Assembly: GCA_964106915.2 (NCBI GenBank)
Contig: OZ066920.1
DNA length: 64,000 bases
Source of the DNA: Podarcis gaigeae
Lineage: Eukaryota
Strand: one strand, 5' to 3'
Of this stretch, positions 36,128 through 39,100 are shown one piece after another (the stretch's first letter is position 1; each line of letters starts with the position of its first letter). Position numbers: made by a program.

Positions 36128-39100
36128 ATCCTGACTCCACATTTTACAATTTAGCATACCATTGCTAGAAAACCTGTTTTAGCTGCAACCCTAAAGAGAG
36201 AACCAACAAGATCTGCTTATTAACTTCAATTAATTGTTTCAAGATATATGTTTTTCTAACTTTGAACATGATTAGTTGATTCCTTACTAGAAAAGGGTAG
36301 AACCTCTTTGCCACATTTTGTTTGGTCTTGGTTCATTCCGACCTTAGGAAACCCCTCTGGTGAATCCTTGTCCTGAATTTTAAGTACTTTGTGAAGTGCT
36401 TTCTTTGTCATACCAAAGACTTTACCAAAGAACACTAGCACTTAAAAAGACAGAGGTGCAAGTACCTTTTGTCCTGGCATGTTGAGGAAAGTTTCACTGG
36501 ACTTCAAAGCCAGCAGTAACTCACTTAAAACAATTGAGCCTTAACTTGAAACATGGAATTGAGTCAAGAGTTCTTGGACTTTGAGACATGGTGATATGCC
36601 TCAAAATATCATCGGGAGAGCAAAAACTGATGCTTAACAATATTTAATTTTAATTTAATGTATGCAGTCCTCCAGGCTTCTTTCTCTTGCCCTCAAGACT
36701 CTCACTAGGCCATGTCCCCTCACTGGTCCTGCTCTGCATCCTCCTTGCATTTTCTGCCTAGCTGGAACTTGTCCCGGAACTGTGATAATGTCTCTTGTTG
36801 ACCTGAGAGGAAACGGGAAAGTGGTGTTTCTGTGTTAGTTGTATCTCTGGCTTCTGCATGAATGAAATTTAGTCTACCATACAAGTAAGAGAAATATCCC
36901 TGCCCATTTTTTCCCTGGCCCCACTGAAAGTGGAATGTGGCCCCTGGTAGATCCCCATGAGGCAATGTGGCCCTCGGATTTATAACTCCCAAGTTATAAA
37001 GTTATTCAGGGCAATTGTCATTTGGACTGCTCCTCAGAGATGCAAGCATAATGAGGTTATTCACTATGGCACAATGCAAGTTATATCTTTTGGGGAGTCA
37101 TTTACTGGTGCTAGGGCGTAGTTTTGTCTTGAACAAAATACTGGTTGTAAATAAATACACACTGAATTTGGCTCTGCTGAACATACATTTAAGCTCTGAA
37201 AATCATTCATATAAACATGCTCCATAATTTCAGAAATGCCCTGGGGTTTTATAATGCTTAAGGCACATATGCTGGACATTACACTTTAGTCACACACCAC
37301 ACACATATTCTTTTTGCCTCTTGGGTCCTGCGGCAAACAGCTGTCATTAATATTCACCCCTTCTGCTAACACTTTCCTTAATCCCAGTAGGGCTTCCTAG
37401 CCTATAATTAAACTTTCCAGCTGCTGCACTGCTAGACAGAACCCAAATGGATCATTTGCTTTTAAAACATTCCCTCTTTGCTACTCCAAGGATGAATCCG
37501 AAGAAACTTTTTTCACAATGTCATGGTTCATTCTATTTCTTCCAATCTATGTCATGTACTAAGTGCTTCACATTCCCTAACATTACATTCTGACATGATA
37601 GGGCAGCATTTTCAAAAGTGCTACCTGTTTCATGTTCAGAACTACTTAGTGAGAGTTGAAAAATCTGAATGCATGGATGCAATGTTAATATCAGAGGAAG
37701 GGTTTTGTTCAGTTAGAGTCTGGGAAAGTTAAGCTAAGGGGTAACAATCATAGTTAGGCAACAATCATAGCTTAATGGCAATTTTAAAAACCAAAGTAGC
37801 AGAAACACAATTAAATGAGAGATGTATTATTTACATGCCATAAATGTCAAATCTTTAAAAGGAATGAATACATACACAGACATACTCTTCAAAAAATTAA
37901 GAAGGTACTAGGAAATTATTGCTATCCAATTAACGAAAATTCTGATCTTCCTTCAGACAGGGAGGTGCAGCACATACACCCCAGCAACAAAATCCTGGTT
38001 CTAGTTGTTGCTGGGGTGTATGTGCTGCACCTCCCTGTCTGAAGGAAGATCAGAATTTTCGTTAATTGGATAGCAATAATTTCCTAGTACCTTCTTAATT
38101 TTTTGAAGAGTATGTCTGTGCATGTATTCATTCCTTTTAAAGATTTGACATTTATGGCATGTAAATAATACATCTCTCATTTAATTGTGTTTCTGCTACT
38201 TTGGTTTTTAAAATTGCCATTAAGCTATGATTGTTGCCTAACTATGATTGTTACCCCTTAGCTTAACTTTCCCAGACTCTAACTGAACAAAACCCTTGTT
38301 TCATATATATATATATATATATGAAACTTCTTCAGCTTGAAGCCTAACAACCCTATCATCAAGTTACACCCCAAGTATTTCAGTGGAGCTCATCTGAAAT
38401 GTCCCTGAACATCTCATCTAATTTCTCTCAGCATCTTCAAAACATGCAACCTGGCCTTGCAAATGAACTTCTTCCCCAAAAGCCAACATTGTGTTGCATC
38501 ATACACACTCCCAAAGTGTTTATTAAACAGGGATTAAACTTCTACATACAAGCAAATCCTATGATTCATTCTGAATCAAAATATAACCAATTTTCAAAAA
38601 GGAAATCAAAGGCACTTCTCCCACTACATAAAGTAGTACTGCTACAATAAATACATCAATTTTTTATTGTTATTTTAAATATATTGTTACTAATGATTAC
38701 TTGGTTTACTAAAGTATGCACAATGTCTCTTTTTTCAAGTTACATTTTCTACAGATCAGTTTCATTTGTTGAGACCTTAGTGTTACATTAGGAAGAAAAG
38801 AGGGAAAGAGGTGGAGGGGGGCATGGTGAGTGGGGTGGCAATGCTTCTATTCTACTTAGTATATGTGTGGGGTTTTGTGTCAGTGTCACTTGTGTGGGAA
38901 TACCTTTATGAACTCCATTCAAAGGAAAACTGGCAAGTGCCCACCAGCCATCTCAATAAAGCACTGCCCCAAATGAATTGCTTAGCCTCCTGACAACAGC
39001 AGCATTCTAGGTCACTTACCCTTTTTGTCACCCTCAAAATATTTAAAGTGACAACATGCCTTGGCTGTCCATTTTGAACTGCACAGCAGAGATAAAAAGC

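What the first reader, a model, noticed from the sequence alone, without database searches (positions are those of the whole stretch)
37698..38297. 600-bp near-perfect palindrome in EPB41L3 intron 1, fully paired on the sense strand
Seen: 293-bp arms, a 14-nt spacer (aatcctggttctag), no indels and one mismatch (37874 a / 38121 c). On the transcribed minus strand that mismatch is a G-U wobble, so the pre-mRNA could form an uninterrupted ~293-bp dsRNA stem. The arms do not resemble any repeat elsewhere in the window and there is no clear TSD. Established: long, short-spacer palindromes are unstable (cruciforms, breakage) and rare, and long intronic hairpins are ADAR and Dicer substrates. Inference: either a very young fold-back inverted duplication or foldback element, or a maintained hairpin-RNA/endo-siRNA or editing locus. 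An assembly artefact must be excluded; the single mismatch argues somewhat against one.
Basis: partly seen in the sequence, partly recalled or inferred. Interest (0 to 1): 0.75.

Follow-up and report, generated by a model that had tools for sequence, protein, structure and literature searches.

The report
Young retroelement-type palindrome in lizard intron
The 600-base palindrome is real and sits in the first (5'-UTR) intron of a lizard EPB41L3 gene, but it is most likely the ordinary head-to-head footprint of a recent Penelope-like retroelement insertion, not a special hairpin-RNA gene.

Summary
The arms are 37698-37990 and 38005-38297 (293 nt) with a 14-nt spacer, no indels and one mismatch. 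That mismatch is a G-U pair in minus-strand RNA.

The window is from a lacertid lizard, not human. EPB41L3 exons lie on the minus strand. The palindrome lies between a CpG island (about 51.75-54.25 kb) and the ATG exon (about 30.3 kb).

One copy is flush with the right arm (38297-38304). The other lies 64 nt left of the left arm (37626-37633). The layout is therefore [repeat][64-nt one-sided tail][arm][14 nt][arm][repeat], placed at the edge of one of only two (TA)n runs in 64 kb.

A second palindrome at 44450-44628 has the same layout. It carries a clear 13-bp target duplication, a 38-nt tail and a truncated hammerhead-like core.

Published Penelope-like element (PLE) insertions show these features: 5'-truncated inverted copies, a one-sided tail, short duplications and a (TA)n preference (PMC8557442, PMC3846280).

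My best reading (about 0.55) is a very young PLE-type insertion whose RNA hairpin is a by-product. The rivals are a local template-switch duplication, a DNA foldback element and an assembly artefact. Copy number, orthologues, spanning reads and small RNAs could not be checked.

The parts
37626..37633 (.). Left copy of the candidate 8-bp target-site duplication (TGTTTCAT)
   Evidence: the same 8-mer occurs at 37626 and 38297. Of 13 shared 7-mers or longer in the flanks, it is the only one flush with an arm end. A flush 8-mer at this geometry occurs in 106 of 8972 random positions (right-anchored) and 100 of 8972 (left-anchored).
37634..37697 (-). 64-nt one-sided extension ('tail') between the left repeat copy and the left arm. 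Inferred to be the 3' end of the tailed retro-copy, sense on the minus strand.
   Evidence: Read from the sequence. It has no partner on the right side. It shows no significant similarity to the arm: 373 of 500 shuffles score at least as well. That it belongs to the insert is inferred from the 8-mer and from the parallel layout of the second palindrome.
37698..37990 (-). Left arm (293 nt). Inferred sense runs outward, on the minus strand.
37991..38004 (.). 14-nt non-palindromic spacer (AATCCTGGTTCTAG), the head-to-head junction and the loop of the hairpin
38005..38297 (+). Right arm (293 nt), the tail-less inverted copy. Its last base is shared with the repeat.
   Evidence: The mismatch lies at 38121 (C), opposite 37874 (A).
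38297..38304 (.). Right copy of the candidate 8-bp target-site duplication, flush with the right arm
38298..38327 (.). Target context: a 30-nt perfect palindrome made of a (TA) run (38303-38322, 10 units) between complementary hexamers
   Evidence: sequence; only 2 runs of (TA) of 6 units or more exist in the 64-kb window (26075-26088 and 38303-38322).
30065..30316 (-). Context: open frame holding the first coding (ATG) exon of EPB41L3
   Evidence: 92% identity to band 4.1-like protein 3 of Zootoca vivipara and Podarcis muralis.
51750..54250 (-). Context: CpG island, the presumed promoter and non-coding exon 1 of EPB41L3
   Evidence: GC 0.48-0.67 and CpG o/e mostly 0.5-0.95, against 0.18 in the 30.4-51.9 kb interval. 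Its role is inferred; no transcript data were available.

Best explanation
The palindrome is the footprint of one recent retrotransposition event of the Penelope-like-element (PLE) type. Two 5'-truncated copies of the 3' end of a retroelement sit head to head, with their 3' ends pointing outward. One copy carries an extra 3' extension ('tail', 64 nt) that the other lacks. The whole insert (37634-38296) is bounded by an 8-bp target-site duplication and went in at the edge of a (TA)n microsatellite.

The two arms truncate within 14 nt of each other. The second arm was therefore most likely copied from the first during integration (self-primed or turn-around synthesis). Two independent copies would not be expected to end so close together. 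This explains why the arms are almost identical.

The single mismatch is either one later substitution or a reverse-transcription error. The insertion is therefore very young.

The host intron is read on the minus strand, so the pre-mRNA would carry a 293-bp perfect hairpin. That hairpin is a by-product. It could be edited by ADAR or diced, but nothing indicates that it is maintained for that purpose.

**Shown:** the structure, the 8-mer, the (TA)n context, the gene and its strand, and the PLE-like second palindrome.
**Inferred:** that the 64-nt segment and the arms are one inserted unit, that the element is a PLE, and the copying mechanism.
For: 1. **Layout.** It reads [8-mer][64 nt unique][293][14][293][8-mer].
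2. **The 8-mer.** A flush 8-mer at this geometry is found at 106 of 8972 (1.2%) right-anchored and 100 of 8972 left-anchored random positions in the same window.
3. **(TA)n context.** The right end abuts one of only two (TA) runs of 6 units or more in 64 kb.
4. **A parallel case.** A second palindrome 6.3 kb away has the same layout in the same orientation:
   - an unambiguous 13-bp duplication (44399-44411 and 44629-44641);
   - a 38-nt tail on the left only (44412-44449);
   - 89-nt arms (44450-44538 and 44540-44628), a 1-nt centre and one mismatch.
5. **Ribozyme-like core in that case.** Its outward-reading right arm starts with TGAAGAAGTGTGCATGCACACGAAAGCTC. This fits the minimal hammerhead core described for PLE repeats: a 6-bp helix II, a bulged base before it, a G-C closing pair, GAAA, and a palindromic GC before the cleavage site. 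Only the first C and helix I are lost to truncation. It is the only such match in the window.
6. **Literature, passages read.**
   - PLE insertions are highly 5'-truncated and often have an adjacent inverted 5'-truncated copy. A 30-40-bp tail is often present at only one end. (TA)n is a preferred target of Naiads, and a similar bias was hypothesised for Neptune (PMC8557442).
   - Rotifer PLEs show 8-10-bp duplications and a 31-bp tail, and their palindromic inverted junctions are interpreted as self-priming (PMC3846280).
   - Minimal hammerheads occur in PLE repeats, including in turtle and snakes (PMC4209133).
   - Penelope copy number is high in non-bird reptiles (PMC4350176), and Penelope is listed among the repeats of a lacertid (PMC9498476).
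7. **Non-coding arms.** Apart from the frame that crosses the centre, no open frame of 70 aa or more lies within an arm. The three frames overlapping the region match no Pfam family.
Against: - No hammerhead-like motif occurs in the arms, spacer or tail, either by Rfam at E up to 1 or by motif scan. Canonical PLE repeats usually carry one.
- The tail is 64 nt, outside the published 30-40 bp.
- The 8-mer is short. Its chance probability is about 1-2%, not negligible, and it rests on a search I designed after seeing the second palindrome.
- No other copy of the arm or tail exists in the window, and there is no similarity to the second palindrome. Repetitiveness is therefore unproven.
- No repeat library, source genome or orthologue was available to test it.
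- The (TA)n context fits the template-switch rival equally well.
- Published PLE structures usually flank a longer body. I did not see a bare head-to-head pair truncated at nearly the same point described in the passages I read.
Confidence: 0.55

Rival explanations
1. Local inverted duplication without a mobile element. A replication fork or repair synthesis stalled at the hairpin-prone (TA) palindrome at 38298-38327. The nascent strand switched to the complementary template, copied about 293 nt backwards and switched back. In this reading the left arm is the ancestral intron sequence and the right arm is the new copy.
For: - The new copy would sit exactly in front of a 30-nt perfect AT-rich palindrome, one of only two (TA) runs in 64 kb.
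- The arm is unique in the window.
- No hammerhead or other element hallmark is present in the arms.
- A smaller event of this kind is visible in the same window. A 20-nt perfect inverted copy, which includes flanking DNA, replaces part of a SINE head at 19791-19844.
- Template switching is a published one-step source of hairpins (PMC5453318 passages; PMC8794818 abstract only).
Against: - It does not explain the flush 8-mer direct repeat, which would then be a 1-2% coincidence.
- It does not explain the shared layout and orientation with the second palindrome, which is clearly an insertion.
- From recall, the template switches described in the papers listed are tens of bases, not about 300. 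I did not find a length distribution in the passages I read.
Confidence: 0.25
2. A DNA foldback or MITE-type transposon whose terminal inverted repeats make up almost the whole element.
For: - The boundaries are sharp and the structure is almost pure inverted repeat.
- An 11-mer is repeated twice near the outer end of each arm (37744-37770).
- The window carries other DNA-transposon MITEs with clean duplications: 2020-2167 with an 8-bp duplication, and four copies with TA duplications.
Against: - No direct repeat of any length lies immediately outside both arm ends.
- The only flush repeat requires an asymmetric 64-nt segment, which a terminal-inverted-repeat element should not have.
- No second copy occurs in the window.
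Confidence: 0.08
3. Assembly or sequencing artefact (a fold-back chimeric read or mis-polished region), with only one arm present in the animal.
For: - Palindromes and PLE tandem/inverted structures are known to trouble assemblies (PMC8557442 passage).
- No reads were available to check.
Against: - The sequence after the right arm continues with new, unique DNA instead of running back along the left flank. Two precise junctions would therefore be needed.
- The spacer matches nothing adapter-like. Left arm, tail and spacer together have no match in the plasmid collection.
- One mismatch separates the arms.
- The placement at a (TA) run with a flush direct repeat is a biological signature.
- A second, older palindrome of the same layout has a 13-bp duplication.
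Confidence: 0.07
4. A maintained hairpin-RNA locus (endo-siRNA source, miRNA-like precursor or ADAR editing site) kept paired by selection, whatever its origin.
For: - The sense-strand RNA is fully paired over 293 bp, at -522.9 kcal/mol.
- The only difference between the arms keeps pairing on that strand.
Against: - One difference cannot show compensatory evolution, and a random transition preserves pairing on a given strand about half the time.
- Near-identity is what a young duplication looks like.
- Rfam gives only sub-threshold matches to 6 miRNA models (9 matches; best 110.7 bits against a gathering score of 140). Matches to 3 of the models, including the best, score almost the same on both strands. 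That is what any perfect hairpin produces.
- No expression, small-RNA or conservation data could be consulted.
Confidence: 0.03

Closest known systems
Penelope-like element (PLE) insertions with inverted pseudo-LTRs (Penelope/Poseidon, Neptune, Naiad clades)
   Same: - Head-to-head inverted 5'-truncated copies.
- An extension present at one end only.
- A short target duplication (8-10 bp reported in rotifer PLEs).
- Insertion next to a (TA)n microsatellite.
- The host group (non-bird reptiles) is rich in Penelope elements.
- (PMC8557442, PMC3846280, PMC4350176; passages read.)
   Different: - No hammerhead motif in the retained 371 nt.
- The tail is 64 nt rather than 30-40.
- No element body lies between the repeats, and both copies are truncated at almost the same point.
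- No reverse transcriptase or GIY-YIG sequence ties it to an autonomous element.
The second palindrome in the same intron (44399-44641), a PLE- or retrozyme-type insertion
   Same: - The same order of parts and the same orientation: duplication, tail on the left, arm, short centre, arm, duplication.
- Both lie in the same intron.
   Different: - It has a clear 13-bp duplication, a 38-nt tail, 89-nt arms and a truncated hammerhead-like core.
- It shares no sequence similarity with the 600-bp palindrome.
- It is older: 1 mismatch in 89, against 1 in 293.
Short-range template-switch mutations that create perfect hairpins (Loytynoja and Goldman 2017; Monttinen and Loytynoja 2022)
   Same: One-step creation of a perfect inverted repeat with a short loop. 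It could yield new RNA hairpins.
   Different: - From recall, the events described are far shorter.
- They leave no target-site duplication and no one-sided tail.
Drosophila hpRNA loci and mouse-oocyte endo-siRNA hairpins (recalled, not read here)
   Same: A long, nearly perfect inverted repeat that is transcribed as one RNA.
   Different: Those loci are defined by small-RNA output and, in flies, by conservation. Neither could be examined here.

Membership tests
Penelope-like element insertion (inverted 5'-truncated pair) | Two 5'-truncated copies of the element's 3' region in head-to-head orientation | tested here: met
   The arms are 293 nt, inverted, and meet at a 14-nt junction. That the outer ends are 3' ends is inferred from the tail and from the second palindrome.
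Penelope-like element insertion (inverted 5'-truncated pair) | Short extension (tail, 30-40 bp) at one end only | tested here: inconclusive
   A one-sided 64-nt segment exists if the 8-mer is the duplication, but its length is outside the published range. The second palindrome has 38 nt.
Penelope-like element insertion (inverted 5'-truncated pair) | Target-site duplication bounding the whole unit | tested here: inconclusive
   The 8-mer lies at 37626 and 38297. Its chance frequency is 106 of 8972 or 100 of 8972, which is suggestive but short.
Penelope-like element insertion (inverted 5'-truncated pair) | Microsatellite, notably (TA)n, target preference | tested here: met
   The right duplication copy runs into a (TA)10 run, one of 2 such runs in 64 kb. 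The preference is documented for Naiads and hypothesised for Neptune (PMC8557442).
Penelope-like element insertion (inverted 5'-truncated pair) | Hammerhead ribozyme motif in the repeat | tested here: not met
   No hammerhead appears in 37400-38600 by Rfam at E up to 1 or by motif scan. Some PLE clades lack it (PMC8557442). The second palindrome does carry a truncated core.
Penelope-like element insertion (inverted 5'-truncated pair) | Sequence identity to the 3' end of an element encoding reverse transcriptase plus GIY-YIG endonuclease; many genomic copies | not testable with these tools
   No vertebrate genome or repeat library was on hand. There is no other copy in the window.
DNA foldback / MITE transposon | Target-site duplication directly flanking both inverted-repeat ends | tested here: not met
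   The bases next to the two arm ends differ. No flush-flush direct repeat was found.
DNA foldback / MITE transposon | Multiple copies | tested here: inconclusive
   None occurs in 64 kb. The genome-wide count is not testable.
Replication template-switch inverted duplication | One arm ancestral and in place in related species; no target duplication | not testable with these tools
   No orthologous DNA was available. The flush 8-mer argues weakly against it.
Rfam miRNA precursor families | Score at or above the family gathering threshold | tested here: not met
   The best match is 110.7 bits against a gathering score of 140, with a near-equal score on the opposite strand. There are 0 matches at gathering score in the whole window.
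hpRNA / endo-siRNA locus | Long hairpin on the transcribed strand | tested here: met
   One search shows the fold. Strand evidence comes (plus-strand GC skew -0.081 and AT skew +0.023 across 30.4-51.9 kb).
hpRNA / endo-siRNA locus | Small-RNA production and evolutionary retention | not testable with these tools
   No RNA data or orthologues were available.

The most novel reading that the evidence does not exclude
The palindrome is not a mobile element at all. In this reading it is a single-step, roughly 300-bp template-switch or fold-back duplication, triggered by the adjacent perfect (TA) hairpin. That is about ten times longer than the template switches described so far. It would have created, de novo, a perfect long hairpin RNA inside the pre-mRNA of a conserved cytoskeletal gene. 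Such a hairpin could already feed ADAR or Dicer pathways in a reptile.
Probability: 0.2. Interest if true: 0.55.

Novelty: new member of a known kind. Interest (0 to 1): 0.27.

Why it matters
If the reading is right, the locus is a clean, very young example of how Penelope-type retrotransposition makes long, almost perfect palindromes inside genes.

Such structures are fragile DNA, they trouble assemblers, and they put long double-stranded RNA into a pre-mRNA.

Together with the older second copy in the same intron, it gives two time points of the same process. It also offers a concrete test case for the still undefined PLE integration mechanism, including the turn-around synthesis and the origin of the one-sided tail.

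For transposon specialists this is expected biology, not a surprise. For genome annotation the practical lesson concerns the test 'no TSD next to the arms', which is the wrong one for this class of insert.

Tried and rejected
- **Rfam.** At gathering score there are no matches in the whole window. At E up to 1 over 37400-38600 there are only sub-threshold hairpin-shaped miRNA models, the best of them on both strands. I rejected these as driven by structure alone. At E up to 10 over the second palindrome there is no hammerhead model. That is expected if its core is truncated, but it means the ribozyme reading rests on a motif comparison only.
- **tRNA scan.** None found.
- **Tandem repeats near the site.** Only an (AC)23 run at 36081-36126.
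- **Other copies of the arm.** Self-BLAST and a sensitive search for arm plus tail elsewhere in the window, and against the second palindrome, found nothing significant. nhmmer returned nothing.
- **Tail versus arm.** I tested whether the tail is a diverged copy of the arm's outer end. It is not significant: 373 of 500 shuffles score at least as well.
- **Alternative tail lengths.** By eye, I looked for a direct repeat that would give a 30-40-nt tail, or a tail on the right made of the (TA) palindrome. None is convincing.
- **Pfam.** The three frames overlapping the palindrome region match no family.
- **Vector or plasmid origin.** No match.
- **Literature search.** A 20-base string from the second palindrome occurs in 0 papers.
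- **Collections not used.** The bacterial/archaeal genome collection was not scanned because it cannot hold this locus.
- **Human sequence.** The window itself is lacertid.
- **Exon handling.** Exons were searched one by one.
- **Supplements.** No supplementary files were opened. Those of PMC8557442 and PMC4209133 may hold consensus sequences or reptile hammerhead families that bear on membership.
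Full report
**1. The observation**

The palindrome is exactly as described. The arms are 37698-37990 and 38005-38297, 293 nt each, with 14 nt between them. A base-by-base comparison finds one non-complementary position (37874 A / 38121 C) and no indels. Complementarity is lost at the first base outside the arms.

It is far beyond chance. The longest perfect inverted arm with a spacer of 50 nt or less is 116 nt in the real 16-kb segment, against 9-11 nt in 5 of 5 shuffles.

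As RNA, the minus strand folds into one uninterrupted 293-pair stem, with G-U at the mismatch. The energy is -522.9 kcal/mol, z = -58.9, and 0 of 100 shuffles fold as well. The plus strand has one unpaired A/C position, at -518.8 kcal/mol.

**2. Where it is**

The window has 39% G+C, a CpG observed/expected ratio of 0.24 and no N. These values are typical of a vertebrate.

Open frames on the minus strand carry exons of a 4.1-family gene:
- a FERM_M exon at 5578-5868 and an FA exon at 990-1529 (Pfam);
- the FERM_M exon scores 155.9 bits to PDB chains named Band 4.1-like protein 3, against 131.3 bits to Protein 4.1;
- the frame with the start codon (30065-30316) finds 2636 proteins at E of 1e-5 or better among 5473 candidates.

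All 120 listed hits are named band 4.1-like protein 3 or EPB41L3. The best are Zootoca vivipara and Podarcis muralis (92% identity), then Podarcis raffonei (89%) and Lacerta agilis (88%).

The window is therefore from a lacertid lizard or a close relative, not from a human. 

A CpG island lies at about 51.75-54.25 kb. Between it and the ATG exon the plus strand has a GC skew of -0.081 and an AT skew of +0.023. From recall of the mammalian literature on transcription-associated mutational asymmetry, this is the direction expected if the minus strand is the sense strand.

'Intron 1, minus strand transcribed' is thus well supported for the strand. For the intron number it remains inferred.

**3.

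A scan of the whole window for inverted repeats (29 pairs, 25 shown) finds a second near-perfect palindrome. It is reported as 44447-44538 / 44540-44631. One search shows that the outer three bases are a chance extension. The true arms are 89 nt (44450-44538 and 44540-44628), with a 1-nt centre and one mismatch.

A 13-base direct repeat bounds it (44399-44411 and 44629-44641). The right copy is flush with the right arm. The left copy lies 38 nt outside the left arm.

This second palindrome is therefore an insertion with a target-site duplication and a one-sided 38-nt extension.

Read outward, its right arm begins with TGAAGAAGTGTGCATGCACACGAAAGCTC. This fits the minimal hammerhead core reported in the repeats of Penelope-like elements (PMC4209133, passages):
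- a 6-bp helix II;
- a bulged base before it;
- a G-C closing pair;
- GAAA;
- a palindromic dinucleotide before the cleavage site.

Only the first C of the core and helix I are missing, cut off by the 5' truncation. It is the only such match in the window. Rfam itself reports no hammerhead there, so this is a motif-level reading.

**4. The same layout at the 600-bp palindrome**

The 8-mer TGTTTCAT occurs at 38297-38304, flush with the right arm and sharing its last base. It also occurs at 37626-37633, 64 nt outside the left arm. Among the 13 words of 7 or more bases shared by the two flanks, it is the only one that is flush with an arm.

At random positions of the same window, a flush 8-mer at this geometry turns up in 106 of 8972 trials (right-anchored) and 100 of 8972 (left-anchored). 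The chance is thus about 1-2%.

The right copy runs straight into a (TA)10 run. This is one of only two (TA) runs of 6 or more units in 64 kb.

The order of parts and the orientation match the second palindrome: duplication, tail on the left, arm, short centre, arm, duplication.

**5. Comparison with the literature**

| Source (passages read) | What it reports |
|---|---|
| PMC8557442 | PLE insertions are highly 5'-truncated and often have an inverted 5'-truncated copy alongside. A 30-40-bp tail is often present at one end only. They trouble assemblies. (TA)n is a preferred target in Naiads, with a similar bias hypothesised for Neptune. |
| PMC3846280 | Rotifer PLEs show 8-, 9- and 10-bp duplications and a 31-bp tail. 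The palindromic inverted junctions are read as signs of self-priming. |
| PMC4350176 | Non-bird reptiles have a particularly high Penelope copy number. |
| PMC9498476 | A lacertid genome paper lists Penelope among its classified repeats. |
| PMC8969392 | The curation guide repeats the points about 5' truncation, inverted pseudo-LTRs and short 3' extensions. |

**6. Best explanation (about 0.55)**

I read the palindrome as one recent PLE-type retrotransposition into the edge of a (TA) microsatellite. The two arms are 5'-truncated within 14 nt of each other. The second arm was therefore most likely copied from the first, by turn-around or self-primed synthesis. It stopped 64 nt short of the first copy's 3' end. 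This step is inferred, and the literature itself calls the mechanism undefined.

One difference in 293 bases means the insert is very young. With a neutral rate of the order of 1e-9 per site per year (recalled, not checked), one difference between two arms corresponds to roughly a million years or so. The Poisson range is very wide, and a reverse-transcription error would make the age zero.

The hairpin in the pre-mRNA follows automatically from the host gene's orientation. The G-U at the mismatch is what a random transition gives half the time.

**7. Evidence against this reading**

- The arms, spacer and tail contain no hammerhead-like motif.
- The tail is longer than published.
- The 8-mer is short, and I looked for it only after seeing the second palindrome.
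- There is no second copy in the window, and no similarity to the second palindrome.
- I could not test copy number, orthologues or repeat libraries.

**8. Rivals**

- **Local template-switch or fold-back duplication at the (TA) hairpin, about 0.25.** This is the main rival. It explains the (TA) context equally well. A small event of that kind is visible in the same window: part of a SINE head at 19791-19844 is replaced by a perfect inverted copy that includes flanking DNA. It does not explain the flush 8-mer or the shared layout.
- **DNA foldback or MITE element, about 0.08.** It fails the test of a duplication directly flanking both ends.
- **Assembly artefact, about 0.07.** This is unlikely. 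The sequence resumes with unique DNA after the right arm, the arms differ at one base, and the site bears biological signatures. No reads could be examined.
- **Maintained hairpin-RNA locus, about 0.03.** It has no support beyond the fold itself. The Rfam matches are sub-threshold perfect-hairpin models, the best of them on both strands.

**9. Verdict**

The feature is real and correctly located. It is best filed as a new member of a known kind: a PLE-type inverted-repeat insertion. Membership is not proven, because the ribozyme and copy-number criteria are unmet or untestable.

Interest is modest. It would rise if the arm proves single-copy, which would make this an unusually large one-step hairpin-creating duplication.

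**10. Labels from recall**

The repeat labels 'Sauria-type SINE', 'hAT MITE' and 'Tc1/mariner-like MITE' are my own. They come from recall and from the duplications and end sequences seen, not from a repeat database.

Noticed in passing
window 44399-44641: A second near-perfect palindrome in the same intron. It has 89-nt arms (44450-44538 / 44540-44628), a 1-nt centre and one mismatch. A 13-bp target-site duplication bounds it, and a 38-nt tail sits on the left only. A 5'-truncated hammerhead-like core starts each outward-reading arm, and the left copy has GAGA where the right has GAAA. It looks like a Penelope-like or retrozyme-type insertion.
   Followed up: yes
window 38298-38327: A 30-nt perfect palindrome: a (TA) run between two complementary hexamers, directly next to the big palindrome. 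The hexamer complementarity is unexplained. On the insertion reading it is part of the target site.
   Followed up: partly
window 19791-19844: In one tRNA-derived SINE copy (19497-19844, minus orientation, with about a 9-bp target duplication), roughly 15-20 nt of the head is replaced. The replacement is a perfect inverted copy of the head plus 9 nt of flanking DNA, giving 20-nt arms and a 14-nt spacer. This is the signature of a short template switch. The two other copies (10427-10792, 24142-24512) have the normal sequence.
   Followed up: partly
window 30065-30316 (minus strand): The first coding exon of EPB41L3 holds a run of 17 glutamines. The best lacertid orthologues are only 88-92% identical over this exon, so the run length may vary among species.
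   Followed up: no
window 2020-2167, 61736-61874, 55149-55219: A palindromic MITE family of about 148 bp. The copy at 2020-2167 has a clean 8-bp target duplication (CCCTAGAT), so it is hAT-like by duplication length.
   Followed up: partly
window 26148-26311, 29255-29502, 47866-48098, 63635-63910: Four copies of a MITE of about 250 bp with terminal inverted repeats and TA duplications (Tc1/mariner-like). The last copy carries an extra inverted fragment of itself at its left end (63635-63672 against 63796-63833).
   Followed up: no
window 51750-54250: A CpG island (GC up to 0.67, CpG o/e up to 0.95), presumably the EPB41L3 promoter and first non-coding exon. The plus-strand skews weaken upstream of it: across 54.3-64 kb the GC skew falls to -0.034 and the AT skew to 0.0.
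   Followed up: partly
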